Source of the DNA: a virus
Lineage: Duplodnaviria; Caudoviricetes
Strand: one strand, 5' to 3'
IMG/VR virus record: IMGVR_UViG_3300028797_000101
Span: 32,001-96,000 of that record
DNA: 64,000 bases
This document shows positions 1,887 through 62,309 of this stretch, one piece after another. Under the pieces are notes generated by a model, which saw nothing but the letters and a program-made list of their open reading frames with translations, was not told where the DNA came from and ran no database searches. Every line of letters starts with the position of its first letter. The stretch's first letter is position 1. Both the position numbers and the translations under genes were made by a program.

Positions 1887-3341
1887 ATGAAGAAACAACC
1901 ATGGGTGTCATTTACATTATCAAATGTATCATTAACTGAATTTGGTTTGAAGATACCCTCTCCGTTTGTATCTTTAACATTGTCTAACAGTGAAATAACT
2001 TCTACTACTTCCTGGACACTAAGATGTGTAGTAGGCGGAGATGATACTAAGAAAGTGAATGTAGCTGCCTTTGAAGCATTACTATACAGCGCAGCACAAG
2101 CTATCAGTTCTTATCCAAACGCAAGCGGAATACCTGTATCTTTTGCATTTGGTTGGTTAGATGAGAAAGGCAAGATAACAGATTACTTGTCTTACCAAGG
2201 ATTCACACTCACATTCAAAGTATCAACTTCTGGGCTGTATATGCAATATGAGATAACAGGATTCGCGTCACTTGCAATACAGTGCAGTATGCCTGTTTTA
2301 CGTATACCAGAACTTACAGGGTTTGTTCAGCCCTCCGCTATCTTCTGTGCACTTGTTAAAGCAACAAAAGCTGATACATTCTATGAAATTGATGTAGATC
2401 ATACAGATGCTCCAACACTTGTTAGCCATGGCGCAATGACAACAAGTTTCAATAAGTATGTTAGAGGCTCATTCTCTGCAGAAGATAACTACGAAGAATT
2501 TCCAGGATTGCTCAAGCTTTCTAAAACATACAGCGGTTCAAGAGACTCTGCAGGTCTAAACAGTTACAAAGCAAAGAAGCTGAGTCAGGTTCTCAACAAT
2601 GCTACTCATACGCCGGTAGAAGAATTCTTAAAGTCTTCTAACACAGATCTAACTCCGCAGTGCTCTGCCTATTCCTACTGGGTAGATGAACCTACTTCTA
2701 CAAAGCTCGGAGTAATTCATTACAAGAGTAACGCGAATCTGTCAATGTCGCAGATATCTGATACACTAAGATATGGAACAAGAGATTCTAATGTGATATC
2801 ACTTCAAGGTTCCTACAATGGCGTAGCATACAACATGACAGACATGAGATTCTCTACAGTAGGATTCTCACTAGACGAAAGCGGTAACACAATTATTCAG
2901 GATGCCGAAGTAGTAAACAGCTGGAGTGCTTCACTTGCTGATGTATTCCAAACAGTTAACATAATCAATGATGTAAACGCAATAGCGTCTCAGTTCAGCG
3001 GAGATTTTACAGTAACTATTCCCGGAACAACAAAGACCTATCAAATCGCACAGCCAGTTTCGTTATTGGTTATGACGGGGAACACTTTATCGCCCGTGTC
3101 TGGAATATACAATGTGATGTCTGTTTCTCATACTATTGGAACTACATTCACAACAACACTAAAGATTCAAAGACTTGTTATGAGCTCTGCTAATGATGTC
3201 GCTTCAAGTCAGGGCATATTCATCTCAGGAAGTGGAGCTTATCCAAGAAGTGCTTATACAACTACATCTAATGTTAAGAGCACTTCTTACGTAGATTTCG
3301 GAATACTTTATCCGGATTTTACGTGTATGCAATTATCATAG
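1887..3341 (+). CDS. Baseplate hub protein (gp27/GpD-like)
   Basis: C-terminal SGIYNVMSVSHTIGTTFTTTLKIQR hub-type motif; position in baseplate cluster. Confidence 0.6.
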   Translation: MKKQPWVSFTLSNVSLTEFGLKIPSPFVSLTLSNSEITSTTSWTLRCVVGGDDTKKVNVAAFEALLYSAAQAISSYPNASGIPVSFAFGWLDEKGKITDYLSYQGFTLTFKVSTSGLYMQYEITGFASLAIQCSMPVLRIPELTGFVQPSAIFCALVKATKADTFYEIDVDHTDAPTLVSHGAMTTSFNKYVRGSFSAEDNYEEFPGLLKLSKTYSGSRDSAGLNSYKAKKLSQVLNNATHTPVEEFLKSSNTDLTPQCSAYSYWVDEPTSTKLGVIHYKSNANLSMSQISDTLRYGTRDSNVISLQGSYNGVAYNMTDMRFSTVGFSLDESGNTIIQDAEVVNSWSASLADVFQTVNIINDVNAIASQFSGDFTVTIPGTTKTYQIAQPVSLLVMTGNTLSPVSGIYNVMSVSHTIGTTFTTTLKIQRLVMSSANDVASSQGIFISGSGAYPRSAYTTTSNVKSTSYVDFGILYPDFTCMQLS

Positions 3342-3362
3342 AAGAAAAGCGAGGATGATAAC

Positions 3363-3923
3363 ATGATCATTGCAAACTGTGCGGTGACAAAATCAGATGC
3401 TACAATTGTAAAGTACTACGTAGACACAGAAAGATCTTCAAAATACAAGATAAATGGCGGATTATGTGCCGGTGTAGTTCTAAAGTCTACATCGGCACAA
3501 GATTTGAGTGCGTATAGCTTGTGTCCAGGCACTGTTGTTTACACAGGTGTTAATAACACAGGTGCTTATGGATGTGACCTTGGAAAGTATGTAGTGATAG
3601 TTATGTACAATAGGTACAACGCTGTAATGTATTCAGGCCTCACATCTCTAAATGTGAAGATCATTGACAAGCTAAACAAAGGCGATAAGCTAGGATCTTG
3701 CAAGAGCATCTTGGTTTCCTATCTTTCCAAAGAGAACGCCTTATGGGCTGTCCGTCTTGACAGCCAAACAACCTGGTACAAGCATGATCCACTTGATATA
3801 CTTCAATCTGGATATGAAGCAACATTCATGTCTATCGACATTCCTGAAGAATCTTCGGAAGACGATCCCGGAGAAGGACTCAATCCTGAAGCTGATTACA
3901 CTTTATCAAACAACCAAGGGTGA
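3363..3923 (+). CDS. Degenerate M23-peptidase-fold baseplate protein
   Basis: PGTVVYTG..GKYVVI..YSGL..LNVK..KGDKLG pattern; the Zn ligands HxxxD and HxH are absent. Confidence 0.5.
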   Translation: MIIANCAVTKSDATIVKYYVDTERSSKYKINGGLCAGVVLKSTSAQDLSAYSLCPGTVVYTGVNNTGAYGCDLGKYVVIVMYNRYNAVMYSGLTSLNVKIIDKLNKGDKLGSCKSILVSYLSKENALWAVRLDSQTTWYKHDPLDILQSGYEATFMSIDIPEESSEDDPGEGLNPEADYTLSNNQG

Positions 3924-3929
3924 TAAACA

Positions 3930-5093
3930 ATGGGTTACAGTTCATTAGTTTCTTACATAAAGCTAAGTCCAAATAAAAACAGCCCTCGAAACCATAAGAT
4001 TGATTCTGTAGCTATTCACTGTATGGCAGGGAATCTATCTGTAGAGACTTGTGGAGATTTGTTTGCTAATCCAGAAAGAAAAGCGTCGTCAAACTATGGA
4101 ATTGGTTCAGATGGTAGGATTGCTCTTTATGTAGATGAAAATGATAGATCCTGGTGTACATCTTCTGGTGGTGTAGATCATAGGGCAATCACAATAGAAG
4201 TCGCTAACAGCAGTATTGGTGATCCATGGCCTGTTTCTGATGCTGCGTATCAATCTCTTTTGAATCTTCTAACTGACATATGTAGAAGGAATCAGATATC
4301 TTCGCTAAGATGGATGGCCAATAAAGCGTATGCTGTTACAGCAGCTAACGGAGGTCCGGTAGATCAGCAAAACATGTTTGTACATAGATGGTTTGCTGCA
4401 AAAGCATGTCCAGGTGACTATCTTTACAACGCACATGGTGCAATTGCTACAGAAGTAAACAGACGTCTTGCATCAGGAGCTCCTATCACTCCAGTAGTTT
4501 CTACTGCAGCTCCTACCGTAGCTATTGATAGGTCTAAACTGAGACCATATGTCCCTATTCTAGATAGAGACTCACCAACTCCTAATTACTCTCAATTTTA
4601 TGCAAACGGTGTAGTAGGTGCGATTGTAGAAGCTGGATATCAGTTTACATCTGCACACATTCGTGTTGAAAACTTCAGAAATCCTAAGGCCTACGATCAG
4701 GTTCAAGCTCTTATCTCTGTGAGACTTCCCTTCGGCTACTACATGATAGCAAGAGCACAAAATTTATCGGAAGTTAGAGAGGAAATGTATCAGCTATCAT
4801 TTCTGGTAAGAAAATACTCTCCAGGGCTTGGTGTGTGGTTGCAATTAGATCTTCCTAAAAATCAACCAGATATAAATGATAATATCTTAAACGCATATAA
4901 GACATATCTCATAAAATTAGGTCTTGTAGGTAAGATAGGAATATATGCTGATAGCAGTACAATCAAAAGTATCAACTGGAGCAAGCATTATCACGAATGG
5001 CTTCTGTGGTATGTAGATAGAGTTTCTGGAGTTGGTCAATTATCTACTGTATTTGACTCTTCGTTCTTCGCTATGTCAGGGAGGTACACATAA
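3930..5093 (+). CDS. Virion-associated N-acetylmuramoyl-L-alanine amidase (Amidase_2) plus GH25-like domain
   Basis: AIHC, SSNYGIG, TIEVA and HRWFAAKACPG motifs; the C-terminal half has a GH25-like pattern. Confidence 0.8.
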   Translation: MGYSSLVSYIKLSPNKNSPRNHKIDSVAIHCMAGNLSVETCGDLFANPERKASSNYGIGSDGRIALYVDENDRSWCTSSGGVDHRAITIEVANSSIGDPWPVSDAAYQSLLNLLTDICRRNQISSLRWMANKAYAVTAANGGPVDQQNMFVHRWFAAKACPGDYLYNAHGAIATEVNRRLASGAPITPVVSTAAPTVAIDRSKLRPYVPILDRDSPTPNYSQFYANGVVGAIVEAGYQFTSAHIRVENFRNPKAYDQVQALISVRLPFGYYMIARAQNLSEVREEMYQLSFLVRKYSPGLGVWLQLDLPKNQPDINDNILNAYKTYLIKLGLVGKIGIYADSSTIKSINWSKHYHEWLLWYVDRVSGVGQLSTVFDSSFFAMSGRYT

Positions 5094-22383: not shown

Positions 22384-22400
22384 GAGGTAGGTTGTGTTAT

Positions 22401-23777
22401 GGCGTACCTTTGGAGGATCCTCCGTCAGCCACTTTTCAAATATTAAAGAAAGGAGAATAACATGGCTACATATTGTGTACAGAGTAATGTAATCAGAGGA
22501 TTGAGCAAAGAACAGTATGACGTACTTCGAGAAATGTGCAGATATTCTAATAATCTATACAATGTTGCACTTTATAACATTCGTCAACATTATTTCAACA
22601 CAAAGCAATTTTTAAACTACGAAGGCAACTATCACGAATGTAAGACGAATGAAAATTATAAGCTTTTGCAGGCAGGAATATCACAGCAGATAATGAAAGT
22701 TGTAGACAGAAGTTTCAAATCTTTCTTCAATCTGATTAAGAAATGTAAACTTGGAGATTACAGATATCACGATGTCAATATTCCACATTATAGACCTAAA
22801 GGCGGAATGTTTAATCTGATAATGTCTACAAATGCTCTTGTAGTGAAAAATGGATATCTATATGTTCCAATGAGTAGGAATTTCAGAACTTTGCACCCAG
22901 GTATGAAAGAAATCAAGATTGCATTTCCGGAAAGATTGACAGACAAGATTATTAAAGAAGTTCGCATCTTACCTTTTAACAATGGTCGTTACTTCAAGAT
23001 ACAATATGTATATGAAGTTGAACAAGAAGATGCCTACGTTGACAAGAATAATATTCTGTCAATAGATCTAGGTGTGGACAATCATGCTACTTGTGTTTCA
23101 ACTGTTGGGACACCGTTCATTATGGAAGGTCGTAAACTCAAATCAATCAACCATCAGTGGAACAAAGAATTAGCAAGACTTCGTTCTATTTCTATGAAAC
23201 AGAAATTAAAGACCACAAATCGGATACAGAATATCACAACAAAGCGAAACAATCGAGTCAATGATATTATCAAGAAGTCAGCAAGATACATAATCAACTA
23301 CTGTATCAAAAACAGTATTGGTACGCTCATTGTAGGCTACAGTGTTGATTTCAAAAGATATTCTAACATCGGTAAAGTTAACAATCAGAACTTTGTCCAG
23401 ATACCTTTAGGTGATCTTCGGCAACAACTTGAATTCCTTTGTTGGAAGTATCATATAGATTACATTAAACAAGAAGAAAGTTACACTTCTAAAAGCAGCT
23501 TTCTAGATAAAGATGTGCTTCCGGAGTACAAAGCAGAACAGCCGTATGAAGGTACATTCAGTGGTAAGCGCATAAAAAGAGGACTATACCAATCAAAGAA
23601 CGGTACAATCCTTAATGCTGATGTAAACGGGGCAGCTAATATCTTAAGAAAATGTAAGCAGAATGTCGATTTCGATAGACTGTGTAAAGGGCTTTTGGCG
23701 AGTCCAGTAAGAATAAGGATATCTTAAGTATCAAACTTCTTATGAATCCTATCAGCTTTAGCCGATGGGTACGTCAA
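22401..23777 (+). mobile_element. tnpB-only IS200/IS605-family element
   Basis: Starts after TTAT and ends with a right-end hairpin plus TCAA; removing it recreates ATG GAA ATG ACT in frame with ORF 23782. Confidence 0.8.
22462..23727 (+). CDS. tnpB: RNA-guided endonuclease TnpB
   Basis: LYNVALY, RuvC-I SIDLG, EESYTSK and RuvC-III NADVNGAANI motifs. Confidence 0.9.
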   Translation: MATYCVQSNVIRGLSKEQYDVLREMCRYSNNLYNVALYNIRQHYFNTKQFLNYEGNYHECKTNENYKLLQAGISQQIMKVVDRSFKSFFNLIKKCKLGDYRYHDVNIPHYRPKGGMFNLIMSTNALVVKNGYLYVPMSRNFRTLHPGMKEIKIAFPERLTDKIIKEVRILPFNNGRYFKIQYVYEVEQEDAYVDKNNILSIDLGVDNHATCVSTVGTPFIMEGRKLKSINHQWNKELARLRSISMKQKLKTTNRIQNITTKRNNRVNDIIKKSARYIINYCIKNSIGTLIVGYSVDFKRYSNIGKVNNQNFVQIPLGDLRQQLEFLCWKYHIDYIKQEESYTSKSSFLDKDVLPEYKAEQPYEGTFSGKRIKRGLYQSKNGTILNADVNGAANILRKCKQNVDFDRLCKGLLASPVRIRIS

Positions 23778-58376: not shown

Positions 58377-58537
58377 GATCGTTATATACATTAGAAATGA
58401 AACATACGGCGAGGCACAGAAGGTTTCACAGAGATGCAAAGAGAAGCTGCTACTGAGATCAGGGCGGAGATAATGACGAGGAAGTTAAGTCTTTGTAGAA
58501 CAATCTTTTCTTCAGTGCCGGAACTCCTTTCTTTAAT

Positions 58538-58672
58538 GTAGATGTAAGGTGACGGAACTCATGGTAAACGTGGCGATGGAGGTAATTGGCTAACTACCAT
58601 CCCTGAACAGGTTCGAAACCGCTTACCTTTTAGTAAAAGGATTGTAGGTTCAAGTCCTACTCTTACATCTAC
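58538..58672 (+). ncRNA. tRNA-like RNA with expanded anticodon region
   Basis: 12-bp acceptor-like stem, Leu-type D arm, GTAGG-TTCAAGT-CCTAC T arm; no canonical anticodon arm. Confidence 0.55.
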
Positions 58673-58675
58673 TAC

Positions 58676-58748
58676 GCTCTTGTAGCACAATTGGCAGTGC
58701 AGCTGATTTGTAATCAGCAGGTTGGGGGTTCGAGTCCCTCCAGGAGCT
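58676..58748 (+). tRNA. tRNA-Thr(UGU)
   Basis: Full cloverleaf; GCTGA-TT TGT AA-TCAGC anticodon arm. Confidence 0.95.
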
Positions 58749-58869
58749 TTGAAAGCTGATATATCCTATCGGACTCAACAATGGGGATGGCGTAGATAAC
58801 TCCGCAGAACCGCGCTTCAGCTTTCTCCCCTCTAAACTCCGCATCATCTATACAAAGGAGGTTGAACTC

Positions 58870-59064
58870 ATGCAAGTTAAGATCGCCTGGAAAACACTCG
58901 ACAATGTACAGCTTAAAACATTCAAGGACGAGTTCGCTTGTATTGAGTGGTGCCGTAGGAACGCAACAAACATCATGAGCATCAACGGTGTGCTTACAGG
59001 CAGGAACAACTTATCACATTTTGATGTTAAAGATTGTTTAGAGAGCAAGTTTTTCGACTATTAG
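58870..59064 (+). CDS. Hypothetical protein
   Basis: AGGAGG SD. Confidence 0.55.
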   Translation: MQVKIAWKTLDNVQLKTFKDEFACIEWCRRNATNIMSINGVLTGRNNLSHFDVKDCLESKFFDY

Positions 59065-59079
59065 ATTTTAATATATTTT

Positions 59080-59152
59080 CGGGATGTGGTGCAGTTGGTA
59101 GCATGCGTGATTTGGGATCACGAGGTCGTGGGTTCGAGTCCCGTCATTCCGA
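59080..59152 (+). tRNA. tRNA-Pro(UGG)
   Basis: Cloverleaf; CGTGA-TT TGG GA-TCACG anticodon arm. Confidence 0.9.
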
Positions 59153-59583
59153 TTTACAAACCAGAGAAGGAGATGGTATACATGAAATACGCAAGAAAAT
59201 GTATTTGTCATGGGGCAGCAACCAAGAGAATTGGCAAACTTGATCTCTGCAATGATTGCGCAAAACGTGTCCATAGAAAGAAAAGTAAATATGTGTTGAC
59301 TGATGTTCATGTATTCACTATTCCTCCCAGTCTGAAAATATACAGAGATATCATCATCAATGTGTACTGATATCAATGTGCCAATTATTCTGCAGAAGTG
59401 AGGTAGAATCATGAAAGGATCTAAAAGACATCGTTGGTTCAAAGAAGGTGTTCATGCAAGCAGAAAATACATGAAGCATGTCATGAATCGCAGAGTTAGA
59501 CACATGAATAACATCTCTAGCGGATGCAGTTACAAGCGAATACTTAAGGAAGGAGAGTTCTGCAGAGTGGATTAAATGTATAC

Positions 59584-59656
59584 TGGAGGCTACCCAAGCG
59601 GTTATGGGGCGGGCCTTATAAGCCCGTTGCGTCGAGTTCGACTCTCGAGCCTCCAA
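59584..59656 (+). tRNA. tRNA with UAU anticodon (Ile, AUA reader)
   Basis: TGGAGGC/GCCTCCA acceptor; CGGGC-CT TAT AA-GCCCG anticodon arm; TTCGACT T loop. Confidence 0.85.
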
Positions 59657-59694
59657 TTTTCTACTAGGTTGTTGAATTAAGGAGGAAACAAAAC

Positions 59695-59946
59695 ATGATG
59701 AATGATCTCAAGGACACTATTGAGTTGATGCAGAGCGAGGATTACAAAGATCGCTTCAGGGCTGAGTATTATCAGACTAAGATCCGGTACAACAAGCTGC
59801 ATACACTTCTTCTTCAGTTGGACGCCGGAACTGCAAAAATTACACCGAAGTGTCCCAAAGATCTGCTTAAAAGACAATGTGCTGACATGGGTTCGTATCT
59901 GTGTGCTCTGGAAGTTAGAGCTGAAATCGAAGAAATCGATCTGTAG
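59695..59946 (+). CDS. Conserved small phage protein (crAss001_48-like)
   Basis: M.SEDYKDRFRAEY.Q..IR..KL..LL..Q...M..Y...L..R pattern. Confidence 0.6.
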   Translation: MMNDLKDTIELMQSEDYKDRFRAEYYQTKIRYNKLHTLLLQLDAGTAKITPKCPKDLLKRQCADMGSYLCALEVRAEIEEIDL

Positions 59947-59963
59947 AAATGAGAGGCGATTTG

Positions 59964-60863
59964 ATGAAAGTCAAAACGTGGCGTGATCCTTATAATTCCG
60001 GATTTTCTGTAACACGCCCTAGAGAAATAGAATTTCATGAAGGATTGACCGTGCTTGTAGGATGCAATGGCGCAGGAAAATCTACATTACTACAAAATAT
60101 AAAAGAGCATTGCAAACATCAAAATTTACCTTGCTTCTTTTATGATAATTTACATTCTGGGGGCAGCCATGCACTACAAGAAGCAATGTATTCTGACTTA
60201 ACATCATTTGTTTCACTTTTATCATCTTCTGAAGGAGAAGCTATCAGAGAAAATCTTGCAGAGAAAAGCAGCTACTTTCTGCATTTTATTCAAACAGGCC
60301 TAATAAATGACCGACATAATAACTTCTTAAGAGCTATGAAGGCATTATCAGGTGAACCTAATACTGAAGTAGATAGCGATGTACGAGTATTTCTGTTTGA
60401 TGCTATAGATAGCGGAATGTCGGTAGACGCTGTTGTAGAAGTAAAAGAGATGTTCAAGCAGATTGAAGAGGATTGCAAGAAAGAAAACAAAAAAGTCTAC
60501 ATTCTGATTTCTGCAAATGAATACGAATTGGCTAGAGAGTGTGATTGCTTCGATGTAAACACCGGCAAGTATCTTAGATTTTCTGACTACATGGATTACA
60601 GAGAGTTTATCTGCAAGTCTAGAGTACGAAAAGAGAAACGATACGCTGATCAAAAGATATGGATCGAGAAGCAGAAAGAAAAAGAGCTAGCAAAGTATCG
60701 TAAGCTTCTACAAGCTACTAAAGAGAAAAGAGATAAGCTCTTAGCTTCCAAACATCCTGATCGTTGGGAGCTTAGAGACCTCGAAGACGAACCTAAAGAA
60801 TTCTTACGGTCAGCTAGATTCATATCTGAAGAAGACGTAGCATTCATAGAAAATTCCACATGA
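59964..60863 (+). CDS. ABC-type ATPase
   Basis: GCNGAGKS, SSEGE and FLFDAIDSG motifs. Confidence 0.8.
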   Translation: MKVKTWRDPYNSGFSVTRPREIEFHEGLTVLVGCNGAGKSTLLQNIKEHCKHQNLPCFFYDNLHSGGSHALQEAMYSDLTSFVSLLSSSEGEAIRENLAEKSSYFLHFIQTGLINDRHNNFLRAMKALSGEPNTEVDSDVRVFLFDAIDSGMSVDAVVEVKEMFKQIEEDCKKENKKVYILISANEYELARECDCFDVNTGKYLRFSDYMDYREFICKSRVRKEKRYADQKIWIEKQKEKELAKYRKLLQATKEKRDKLLASKHPDRWELRDLEDEPKEFLRSARFISEEDVAFIENST

Positions 60864-60904
60864 ATACACAGGAGTAGAAATCTCCTTGTAAAACTCGTTA
60901 GCAT

Positions 60905-61117
60905 AGACGATAGGTGTGATACGGTAAATGCTTTGACAGACAAGATTCTGGTGACTTTGGTAGTGGGAAAAGAAAACTACCACATGTCTCTTGTAAGCGT
61001 AGACATTAAATAAAACTTTCTGATCATCTAATGATGAGGGCATGGCATCCTATGAGTGCACACCTGAAAAGGTTTAGGATGGGAAAAGAGAGTCCATGTA
61101 GAGCGGTGGTATCGTCT
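60905..61117 (+). ncRNA. Candidate structured ncRNA
   Basis: AGACGATA/TATCGTCT closing stem, nested helices, GAAA tetraloop; follows a TCGTTA motif. Confidence 0.45.
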
Positions 61118-61129
61118 CATTAGATTTAT

Positions 61130-61270
61130 TGTAAGCAGAATCTCGACTACGAGAAACTGTGTAATGGGCTGTTGGCGAGCCCTCAAAGAATAAGGCTCTC
61201 GTAGCAACCTTCTTTGGAATCCCAGTGGCTTTAGCCGCTGGGAGTGTCAAATACTCCTCAATAGCTCAAT
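61130..61270 (+). ncRNA. Orphan TnpB omega-RNA (scaffold 61130-61250 plus guide)
   Basis: Colinear with 23653-23777; right-end hairpin CCCAGTGGCT/AGCCGCTGGG plus TCAA; no adjacent tnpB. Confidence 0.75.
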
Positions 61271-61330
61271 CGGTTAGTTAGCGCTCGCTTGTTAACCGAG
61301 TTGTTGCAGGTTCGAGTCCTACCTGGGGAG
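61255..61330 (+). pseudogene. Degenerate tRNA-Asn(GUU)
   Basis: Recognisable cloverleaf with a GTT anticodon but a mismatch in each of the four stems. Confidence 0.7.
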
Positions 61331-61332
61331 TT

Positions 61333-61642
61333 CCTGTCAAATCAGGCGTGTAGAAAGATCGCGTAAGTATCTTTCGGTTGATATCTTCTTCTAATGAAGA
61401 AGCGAAGCTTTTACTGCTGAGGGTAAATCAGCGGCGCAAAACGGGTGAAGCGTCATTCACCCGTCGTTTACTTAGTAGTGGGAAAAGGGAAATCGTTCAA
61501 ATCGTGGAGGATATCTATTGTATATCTGTTGAAACGGTGATGATAAGACTAGATTGGTTGAGAATCTAGATGATGGTGCAGCCCTCGGTCAAGGTGAAGC
61601 AGTTCATTCCAGAAACTGATAGTCTTGTGGTTAAACTACTAA
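61333..61642 (+). ncRNA. Candidate multi-hairpin ncRNA
   Basis: At least seven hairpins plus a long-range TTAGTAGT/ACTACTAA pairing; no credible ORF. Confidence 0.45.
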
Positions 61643-61643
61643 T

Positions 61644-61727
61644 GCTATTGTGGTGGAATAGGCAGACACAAGGGACTTAAAATCCCTCGATGGAAACATC
61701 ATACGAGTTCAAGTCTCGTCAATAGCA
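61644..61727 (+). tRNA. tRNA-Leu(UAA)
   Basis: Cloverleaf with long variable arm; AGGGA-CT TAA AA-TCCCT. Confidence 0.95.
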
Positions 61728-61730
61728 TTT

Positions 61731-61880
61731 GTCTCGGTGGCGGAATAAGTAGACGCTAAAGTAGACGGTCGAAAGATGTTGTGAGGAAACAGTTCGAGTC
61801 TGTGAGTCTCCTGGTTCGACTCCTGGGGGCGCATGGTGCAATATCAACATCATGTAAGGTGCAAATCCTTACCCGAGATA
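61731..61880 (+). ncRNA. tRNA-like RNA with multi-T-loop insert
   Basis: GTCTCGG/CCGAGAT acceptor, Leu-type D arm, GTAAGG-TGCAAAT-CCTTAC T arm; no anticodon arm. Confidence 0.55.
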
Positions 61881-62005
61881 TACACCGCACGGATGGCCTT
61901 GGGTGCAACCGACGGGTGGAGACAGTTAATGCAACTTCGGTGCGGTATACAAATGAATATGGGCCTCAAGCAGAAAGTGGTACACCCTTCATGAGTATGC
62001 AATAT

Positions 62006-62078
62006 AGCCCTTTCGCCAAGCGGTGAAGGCACAGCACTTTGACTGCTGTATTCGATGGTTCAAATCCATCAAGGGCTG
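62006..62078 (+). tRNA. tRNA-Gln(UUG)
   Basis: Cloverleaf; CAGCA-CT TTG AC-TGCTG; G73. Confidence 0.95.
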
Positions 62079-62281
62079 CGCATTATCTTTTCTTGTTTTC
62101 CATTTTTGTTGTTTGATGGAGACGCCACGACAGCTGACTTCGTCTCCACGACACGTGTTCCCTAGCACATGTTCCATACAGGAGTCAGCAAGAAGAAATG
62201 ATACATCCTCTGTAGTGAGAAATCACCTTCGTCTACTGGTTAGGGGTGAAAGATGTCAGACCAGTATCCTAGCATATTTCC

Positions 62282-62309
62282 AGGTTAGATCTAATGATCT
62301 AACCTTTTT
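62282..62309 (+). terminator. Terminator ending the RNA region
   Basis: AGGTTAGAT/ATCTAACCT followed by a T run. Confidence 0.8.

What the first reader, a model, noticed from the sequence alone, without database searches (positions are those of the whole stretch)
61126..61330. Orphan TnpB omega-RNA whose guide reads into a decayed tRNA-Asn
Seen: 61130-61250 is a diverged colinear copy of the tnpB 3' end and right end (TGTAAGCAGAAT..CTGTGTAA.GGGCT.TTGGCGAG.CC...AGAATAAGG..GCTTTAGCCG.TGGG..GTCAA). It has no tnpB ORF or recognisable left end, and is preceded directly by TTAT, the same tetramer that flanks the full element. The predicted guide is ATACTCCTCAATAGCTCAAT, the 5' end of a tRNA-Asn whose stem mismatches can all be explained by changes outside the guide portion. 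It lies in the RNA region downstream of a class E motif. Known: TnpB can use trans-encoded omega-RNAs. Inference: either a minimal parasite using TnpB in trans, or a domesticated guide aiming the phage TnpB at tRNA-Asn loci of the host or of competing phages.
Basis: partly seen in the sequence, partly recalled or inferred. Interest (0 to 1): 0.8.

Follow-up and report, generated by a model that had tools for sequence, protein, structure and literature searches.

The report
Solo TnpB guide-RNA stump before tRNA-Asn
A 121-base leftover of a second jumping gene, holding exactly its folded guide-RNA scaffold, sits four bases before a slightly damaged tRNA-Asn gene in a 159-kb cattle-gut phage; the phage's own TnpB nuclease might still use it, but nothing shows that, and stand-alone guides of this kind are already known.

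Summary
Window 61130-61250 is a TnpB omega-RNA scaffold and right end with no tnpB gene and no left end. TTAT directly precedes it, and tRNA-Asn starts 4-5 nt after it.

It is not a decayed copy of the resident element (22401-23777). It is 100% identical over all 121 nt to the end of a full-length sister element in a metagenome contig (L031). That element's TnpB is 78% identical to the resident one. The compensatory changes between the two window copies therefore reflect family divergence, not evolution in place.

The stump begins within 3 nt of where RNA-level constraint starts in the family. It keeps all four covarying helices.

The guide is simply the DNA flanking the insertion. TTAT plus guide is absent from IMG/VR. 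In 185,579 prokaryote genomes it occurs only as five chance hits, none at a tRNA. Aiming at host tRNA-Asn genes is therefore unsupported.

Best reading (0.55): a young solo right end carried in the pre-tRNA leader. Working in trans as a homing guide stays open (about 0.3). RNase P would leave only a 4-nt guide.

Stand-alone omega-RNAs are already described, and this scan has found similar orphans in other phages. I class it as a new member of a known kind.

The parts
61126..61129 (+). TTAT, the transposon-adjacent motif (TAM) of this element family, directly abutting the stump
   Evidence: Sequence. The same tetramer precedes the resident element and both copies L012 and L015. Genome-wide frequency is 0.58% per position.
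61130..61250 (+). Solo right end, which is a complete omega-RNA scaffold (four helices at about 61135-61160, 61166-61182, 61183-61217 and 61220-61243; 3' tail ending GTCAA)
   Evidence: 100% identical to L031:4219-4339, the end of a full-length tnpB element. 77-81% identical to the resident scaffold. Folds at -46.6 kcal/mol, z -3.97. The family structure has 98% of cells paired and 5 pairs with changes on both sides.
61251..61270 (+). Flank that would serve as the guide (4 leader bases plus tRNA-Asn positions 1-16)
   Evidence: It sits immediately 3' of GTCAA, where all family copies diverge. No TAM-plus-guide target was found elsewhere.
61255..61330 (+). tRNA-Asn (GTT) with four non-canonical stem pairs (7-66 A.C, 13-22 C.U, 31-39 C.C, 50-64 C.A)
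   Evidence: ARAGORN. Rfam 37.3 bits with marked non-canonical pairs. Comparison with other phage tRNA-Asn genes.
22401..23777 (+). Resident TnpB element: short left end, tnpB ORF 22462-23727 (421 aa), omega-RNA scaffold 23653-23777; TTAT at 22397-22400
   Evidence: Pfam OrfB_IS605 and Cas12f1-like TNB domains. It is the only tnpB in the genome. dN/dS is about 0.06 against relatives.
58379..62305 (+). RNA island in which the stump lies in sense orientation (TCGTTAT motif at 58379, six tRNAs, terminator-like hairpin 62282-62305)
   Evidence: Contigs from an RNA library lie on 60874-61109 and 61339-61594.

Best explanation
The stretch is a young solo right end. A second IS200/IS605-type TnpB element, sister to the resident one, once sat 3' of a TTAT four bases upstream of the phage's tRNA-Asn gene, or its end was copied there. 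Only its last 121 nt remain, which is exactly the omega-RNA scaffold. Its 'guide' is just the DNA that happened to flank the insertion, as for every element of this family.

The stump lies in sense orientation inside the tRNA/ncRNA transcription unit. It is therefore probably transcribed as the 5' leader of pre-tRNA-Asn and cut off by RNase P, which would leave a scaffold with a 4-nt stub. On this reading it is a passenger with no dedicated function, and it is not a weapon against host tRNA genes.

Shown: its identity, boundaries, structure, origin from a sister lineage, and the absence of targets. Inferred: transcription, RNase P trimming and lack of function.
For: - The stump is 100% identical over 121 nt to the end of a full-length element (L031). 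That contig's backbone shows no other similarity to this phage apart from tnpB itself and a short motif match. Synonymous sites of the two tnpB lineages are saturated (dS > 2). The stump is therefore recent and has had no time to decay, and its intact fold says nothing about selection in place.
- There is no tnpB or left-end remnant upstream, no tnpA in the genome and no further copies.
- Right-end pieces of other sizes exist in related viral contigs: about 75 nt in L017 and about 35 nt in L020. Truncation is therefore common and not always scaffold-sized.
- The tRNA starts 4 nt after GTCAA. Its 5' strand is needed for the acceptor and D stems, so a guide would be either cut off or folded away.
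- No TAM-plus-guide target was found in IMG/VR or in 185,579 genomes beyond chance. No contig of four runs joins across an empty site (weak evidence).
- The junction TTAT|TGTAAGCAGAAT occurs nowhere else in IMG/VR.
Against: - The left breakpoint falls within 3 nt of where RNA-level constraint begins in the family. Third-codon invariance rises from 6% in codons 380-396 to 65% in codons 397-419, and the stump starts at codon 398.
- The stump also abuts TTAT exactly (0.58% per position). Two such coincidences are unlikely for a random deletion. They hint at selection for a whole guide-RNA module or at a dedicated way of making one.
- All four helices are intact and more stable than those of the resident copy.
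- The stump is co-oriented with the island's transcription.
- An intact TnpB under strong purifying selection is present.
- Stand-alone omega-RNAs are reported to work in trans with compatible effectors (PMC10691335).
- The junction is present unchanged in two further cattle-gut samples (X3, X4).
Confidence: 0.55

Rival explanations
1. It is a working stand-alone omega-RNA, a guide-only selfish module. The RNA is loaded in trans by the resident TnpB, or by the sister TnpB of a co-infecting phage. It directs cutting of the unoccupied allele (TTAT followed by ATACTCCTCAAT...) in related phages. Repair from the occupied genome then copies the 121 nt and co-converts the neighbouring tRNA island. 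This would be an RNA-guided counterpart of T4 SegB marker exclusion.
For: - The scaffold is complete, with boundaries matching the onset of RNA constraint and covariation-supported helices.
- It shows zero decay and lies in sense orientation in a probable transcription unit.
- The resident TnpB is intact: it keeps the RuvC-I and RuvC-III aspartates, has the RuvC-II rearrangement and lack of zinc-finger cysteines that are conserved across this family, and has dN/dS about 0.06.
- Full-length sister elements co-occur in the same gut samples (loose end at 61130 in X4).
- The identical 121 nt stand in a third context in run X6.
- Stand-alone omega-RNAs and gene-less PATEs that need TnpB in trans are documented.
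Against: - The tRNA starts 4 nt into the guide, so RNase P processing or tRNA folding should remove or hide it.
- The resident TnpB is only 78% identical to the scaffold's own nuclease. The two scaffolds differ at about 20% of positions, including 3 nt of the tail next to the guide.
- No empty-site allele or other target was found.
- No RNA contig of this phage covers the stump.
- There is a single copy, and the junction does not recur.
Confidence: 0.3
2. It is a domesticated guide that aims the phage TnpB at tRNA-Asn genes of the host or of competing phages.
For: The guide covers the first 16 nt of a tRNA-Asn. The 5' strand of the phage tRNA is identical to that of an intact phage tRNA-Asn (L041), while its 3' strand has changed.
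Against: - A TnpB target needs TTAT and the TAM-proximal bases ATAC, which are leader sequence and not tRNA.
- The 19-mer of TAM plus guide hits five genomes at the chance rate, none at a tRNA.
- The guide 20-mer is absent from IMG/VR.
- L041 has a different leader and no TTAT in register.
- The guide is fully explained as the flank of an ordinary insertion.
Confidence: 0.03
3. It is a decoy or regulator. RNase P releases a guide-less scaffold that occupies TnpB and damps its activity.
For: The geometry predicts a 4-nt stub after RNase P cleavage. The scaffold is intact.
Against: There is no precedent that I could find and no evidence of binding. The geometry is equally well explained as an accident of where the insertion landed.
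Confidence: 0.05

Closest known systems
Stand-alone omega-RNAs of OMEGA systems (Altae-Tran et al. 2021, as summarised in PMC10691335)
   Same: An omega-RNA scaffold with its own guide but no adjacent effector or transposase, in a genome that encodes a related TnpB elsewhere. [quoted passage not shown]
   Different: - Here it sits in a phage and derives from a different element lineage than the resident TnpB (78% aa identity).
- It has no left end, so it cannot be called 'evidently mobilized'.
- Its guide runs into a tRNA gene.
- Activity has not been tested.
PATEs, gene-less IS200/IS605 derivatives (Meers et al. 2023, PMC10055086)
   Same: Protein-less derivatives that often encode omega-RNAs needing TnpB in trans.
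   Different: PATEs keep both the left and right end and can be moved by TnpA. This stump has only the right end, and the phage has no tnpA.
TnpB-only IS200/IS605 elements acting as RNA-guided homing endonucleases (ISDra2, ISGst; Karvelis 2021, Meers 2023)
   Same: - A TAM 5' of the element and a right end finishing in TCAA.
- An omega-RNA overlapping the tnpB 3' end.
- A guide equal to the right flank.
- Left-end and right-end hairpins that resemble each other in the full copies L012 and L015.
   Different: - The family's TnpB has no sequence match in the PDB.
- It has Gly at the canonical RuvC-II Glu and lacks the zinc-finger cysteines, as in the 'rearranged' branches described in PMC10691335, some of which are virus-specific. 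Membership of a named branch was not tested.
- The scaffold matches no Rfam family.
T4 SegB, a free-standing homing endonuclease in the phage tRNA gene region (cited in PMC13565253)
   Same: A mobile nuclease system lodged in a phage tRNA cluster that can bias inheritance of that region in mixed infections. It is a functional analogy for rival 1.
   Different: SegB is a protein endonuclease gene, not an RNA guide. No homing has been shown here.

Membership tests
IS200/IS605-type TnpB right end / omega-RNA (this phage subfamily) | Sequence homology to the 3' end of full-length tnpB elements, ending at the element boundary | tested here: met
   121/121 identical to L031, 87% to L030, 77-81% to the resident element. 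All copies diverge after GTCAA.
IS200/IS605-type TnpB right end / omega-RNA (this phage subfamily) | Conserved secondary structure supported by covariation | tested here: met
   Four helices and 32 pairs. 98% of cells are paired, against 34-47% when partners are slid. Five pairs have changes on both sides. Covariation score is 0.22 against 0.084 shuffled, reached by 0 of 500 shuffles.
IS200/IS605-type TnpB right end / omega-RNA (this phage subfamily) | TAM immediately 5' of the element | tested here: met
   TTAT at 61126-61129, the same as at the resident element and at L012 and L015. Here it abuts the scaffold, not a left end.
IS200/IS605-type TnpB right end / omega-RNA (this phage subfamily) | Adjacent tnpB ORF and left end (complete element) | tested here: not met
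   No remnant by tblastn or blastn at permissive thresholds. It is therefore a solo end, not an element.
Stand-alone omega-RNA (OMEGA systems) | Compatible effector encoded in the same genome | tested here: inconclusive
   One intact TnpB is present, but it is 78% identical to the scaffold's own TnpB. Cross-recognition was not tested.
Stand-alone omega-RNA (OMEGA systems) | Functions in trans (RNA bound by the effector, target cleaved) | not testable with these tools
   This needs RIP-seq or cleavage assays. Laid RNA contigs do not cover the stump of this phage.
PATE | Both left-end and right-end hairpins flanking a gene-less core | tested here: not met
   No left-end sequence or second TnpA-type hairpin.
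tRNA (Rfam RF00005), Asn-GTT | Cloverleaf scoring above the family gathering score | tested here: met
   37.3 bits against a cut-off of 29, but with four non-canonical stem pairs. This is the lowest score of the five tRNAs that Rfam detects in the window.
Domesticated, nuclease-dead TnpB guide systems (TldR-like) | Guide matching a conserved host or phage target next to a TAM | tested here: not met
   No TAM-plus-guide target beyond chance. The TnpB keeps the RuvC-I and RuvC-III aspartates.

The most novel reading that the evidence does not exclude
The 121-nt module is a guide-only gene drive. It has no left end and no ORF, and it starts exactly at the TAM. It borrows a phage TnpB in trans to cut unoccupied TTAT|ATAC-tRNA-Asn alleles in co-infecting relatives, and so drags the tRNA island into them. 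Its precise TAM|scaffold junction, and the similarly sized orphans this scan has noted in other phage tRNA arrays, would then point to a dedicated route that makes minimal omega-RNA modules in phages.
Probability: 0.2. Interest if true: 0.7.

Novelty: new member of a known kind. Interest (0 to 1): 0.38.

Why it matters
If the stump is active, one phage nuclease would serve guides from different transposon lineages. A 121-nt RNA gene alone could then behave as a selfish homing element in a phage tRNA cluster. That bears on how CRISPR-like multi-guide systems begin.

If it is inert, as I think slightly more likely, it is a dated snapshot of how TnpB elements decay in phages. It also shows that an intact fold and compensatory changes do not prove selection when a living parent lineage exists.

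Tried and rejected
- INPHARED phages: only tRNA-level matches for the locus and none for the tnpB element.
- Synteny through neighbouring genes. The ABC-type ATPase has no IMG/VR relatives and no exact record in the contig index. Amidase relatives (50-57% aa) carry no tRNAs nearby. No syntenic locus, occupied or empty, was found in relatives by these routes.
- Laid contigs of four runs. No contig joins across 61130-61250, and the RNA run X8 has no contig of this phage over the stump or tRNA-Asn. Contigs cannot show absence, so neither counts as evidence. Contigs of X6 and X8 stop near 61110 for unknown reasons.
- X6 record 18 holds the identical 121 nt with both flanks different. Its flanks were not printed, so I cannot tell whether it is a full element or another solo copy.
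- PDB sequence search with the resident TnpB found no match. Catalytic residues were therefore judged only from an alignment with a canonical TnpB (L021).
- Rfam has no family for either scaffold, even at E up to 5.
- An nhmmer profile of the family on the whole genome gave a marginal hit at genome position 26066 (E 0.06). It lies in coding sequence and I dismissed it as chance.
- Origin of the exact TTAT|scaffold junction. I considered microhomology deletion (the sequences do not fit), aberrant TnpA excision using ...TAAA before TGTAAGC as a pseudo right-end cleavage site (3 of 4 bases shared with TCAA), partial gene conversion after TnpB cutting, and a retro-copy of the mature RNA. None could be tested.
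- Left end of the L031 element: no TTAT or hairpin within 200 nt upstream of its tnpB, so its boundary is undefined.

Full report
**What is there**

The window is bases 32001-96000 of a 159,304-bp IMG/VR virus record with direct terminal repeats, rated complete. Near-identical DNA is held by bovine-gut metagenome runs from several studies.

The genome has one tnpB gene (22462-23727, 421 aa). It carries the Pfam domains OrfB_IS605 and Cas12f1-like TNB. There is no Y1 transposase.

The last 125 nt of that element (23653-23777) recur at 61130-61250 with 77-81% identity and E 4.7e-22. A family profile finds no third copy. Both copies end in GTCAA, and similarity stops there. Upstream of 61130 nothing resembles tnpB or a left end.

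TTAT lies at 61126-61129. tRNA-Asn (GTT) begins at 61254/61255.

**Where the stump comes from**

A scan of JGI metagenome contigs with the stump's 3' end found contig L031. L031 carries a full-length tnpB (3028-4293), and its last 121 nt (4219-4339) are identical to 61130-61250 at every base. The sequence after GTCAA differs.

- The L031 TnpB is 78% identical to the resident protein.
- Synonymous sites between the two genes are saturated and dN/dS is about 0.06, so the two elements are old, separately evolving lineages.
- Apart from tnpB and a short motif match, L031's backbone shows no similarity to this phage.

The stump is therefore the end of a sister element, not a drifting duplicate of the resident one, and it is young.

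Laid contigs add three points:
- The same stump junction is present with 0-1 differences in two further cattle-gut samples (X3, X4).
- Full-length sister-type elements occur in X4. A contig that enters the scaffold at 61130 carries tnpB coding sequence before it.
- The identical 121 nt occur in a third context in X6, where both flanks differ.

**Structure**

Seven distinct family scaffolds share four helices: the resident, L007, L009, L010, L012, L030, and L031 (identical to the orphan).
- 98% of cells are paired, against 34-47% when partners are slid.
- Five pairs have changes on both sides.
- The covariation score is above all 500 shuffles.

The stump keeps every helix and folds at -46.6 kcal/mol (z -3.97). 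This is more stable than the resident copy, which folds at -32.6 kcal/mol and has an A.C mismatch in helix 4. The compensatory differences between the two window copies are real. They are family divergence, so they do not show selection on the orphan.

**Boundaries**

Among six full-length genes, invariance of third codon positions is 6% in codons 380-396 and 65% in codons 397-419. The switch falls at codon 397/398 (alignment). The stump begins with the first base of codon 398. It therefore holds the whole RNA-constrained region and essentially nothing else.

Its 5' neighbour is TTAT. Two 99.8%-identical full elements in one other phage contig (L012, L015) both begin right after TTAT and end in GTCAA. 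Their left end has a hairpin resembling the right-end hairpin. TTAT is therefore the family's TAM, and the architecture is IS608-like.

TTAT occupies 0.58% of positions in this genome. A breakpoint that hits both the TAM junction and the start of the scaffold is hard to credit to a random deletion, and I could not explain it. The junction sequence does not recur in IMG/VR.

Shorter right-end pieces also exist in related contigs: about 75 nt in L017 and about 35 nt in L020. Truncation as such is common.

**The guide and the tRNA**

The 20 nt after GTCAA are ATAC plus tRNA-Asn positions 1-16. The tRNA scores 37.3 bits, against 57-68 for its neighbours. It has four non-canonical pairs: 7-66, 13-22, 31-39 and 50-64.
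- The 13-22 mismatch is shared with intact relatives.
- At 31 and 50 the window's base departs from the relatives' paired bases.
- At 7-66 the direction depends on the relative chosen. L041 has A7-T66 and a perfect acceptor stem, while MT836484 has G7-C66.

'Decayed' is fair as a description. 'All changes lie outside the guide' is compatible with the data but not significant.

**Targets**

- The 20-nt guide is absent from IMG/VR.
- TTAT plus 15 guide bases occurs five times in 596 Gb of prokaryote genomes, about the chance expectation. Each hit diverges at once and none is at a tRNA.
- The only other viral tRNA-Asn with the same first 19 nt has a different leader and no TTAT in register.

Aiming at host or competitor tRNA-Asn genes is thus unsupported. 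The only sensible target is the unoccupied form of this very site.

**Expression**

The TCGTTAT motif is enriched and strand-biased: 18 copies against 8.5 expected, 15 of them on the + strand. It brackets the RNA island at 58379 and 62317, with a terminator-like hairpin at 62282-62305. The stump lies in sense orientation inside this unit.

An RNA-library run has contigs on the flanking ncRNA blocks (60874-61109 and 61339-61594) but none of this phage over the stump. That is not evidence either way. Transcription is inferred, not shown.

If the pre-tRNA is processed normally, RNase P would leave a 4-nt guide. If the tRNA folds, the guide is buried in the acceptor and D stems. The guide can also pair with the helix-2 region of its own scaffold (fourth fold).

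**The nuclease**

The family TnpB keeps the RuvC-I and RuvC-III aspartates. It has Gly where a canonical TnpB (L021) has the RuvC-II Glu, and it lacks the zinc-finger cysteines. Rearranged RuvC-II branches, some specific to viruses, and loss of the zinc finger are described in PMC10691335. I did not test membership of a named branch. Strong purifying selection argues that the protein is functional.

**Verdict**

- Identity is secure: a solo right end and stand-alone omega-RNA locus from a sister TnpB element, lodged at a TAM 4 nt before tRNA-Asn.
- Function is open. I give 0.55 to a young passenger remnant, 0.30 to a working trans guide that drives homing of the site, and small odds to a decoy role or to tRNA targeting.
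- Stand-alone omega-RNAs that work in trans (PMC10691335) and gene-less PATEs that need TnpB in trans (PMC10055086) are already described. This scan has also reported comparable orphans in other phages, some in tRNA arrays.
- I class it as a new member of a known kind, with one unexplained detail: the exact TAM|scaffold junction.

Noticed in passing
window 60874-61109 and 61339-61594: Contigs from a bovine-gut metatranscriptome library (X8) lie on the two non-coding blocks that flank the stump and tRNA-Asn. The first is a 236-nt contig whose whole length lies on this block. These blocks may be discrete abundant RNAs of unknown kind, and they have no Rfam match.
   Followed up: partly
window 58379, 62317 and 16 other sites: TCGTTAT occurs 18 times against 8.5 expected, 15 of them on the + strand, often just upstream of genes. 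It brackets the tRNA/ncRNA island and is a candidate phage promoter element.
   Followed up: partly
window 22401-22461 and 23746-23767: The resident element looks worn at its ends. Its left end is only about 60 nt and lacks the right-end-like hairpin seen in L012 and L015. Its own scaffold helix 4 has an A.C mismatch and extra G.U pairs, so the orphan scaffold folds better than the resident one.
   Followed up: partly
window 22462-23727 (and L007, L009, L012, L030, L031): The family TnpB has Gly at the canonical RuvC-II Glu (LIVGY) and no zinc-finger cysteines, yet dN/dS is about 0.06. No PDB chain matches by sequence.
   Followed up: partly
L020:4426-4449 (-) and L020:4708-5979 (+); L017:2200-2276: In IMG/VR contig 3300028887_001852 a TnpB-type right-end hairpin plus GTCAA lies back-to-back with an IscB-like gene (RRXRR + HNH). 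The same contig has a second, roughly 75-nt partial scaffold of another TnpB subfamily with no tnpB.
   Followed up: no
L016:9266-9289 (-) and L016:9731-11839 (-): A right-end motif with the same ...GGGAGTGTCAA tail as the orphan lies 440 nt downstream of a 702-aa ORF that has no Pfam match. This may be a larger, unrecognised effector.
   Followed up: no
L031:291-1529 (-) and L031:3028-4293 (+): The contig that holds the orphan's parent element carries a second tnpB, 45% identical, in divergent orientation. Between them are small phage-type genes joined by the GAAAGYGAG-like junction motif that is also noted in this genome.
   Followed up: no
L012 and L015 (IMGVR_UViG_3300037512_001279): Two 99.8%-identical full TnpB elements sit in one phage contig, each inserted right after TTAT. 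One of them lies directly before a start codon. This is evidence of recent copying within a phage genome.
   Followed up: partly
window 61165-61179 with 61254-61268: The guide region can pair with the helix-2 region of its own scaffold (11 + 3 pairs; the fold improves from -46.6 to -54 kcal/mol). This is probably chance, but it would further hide the guide.
   Followed up: no
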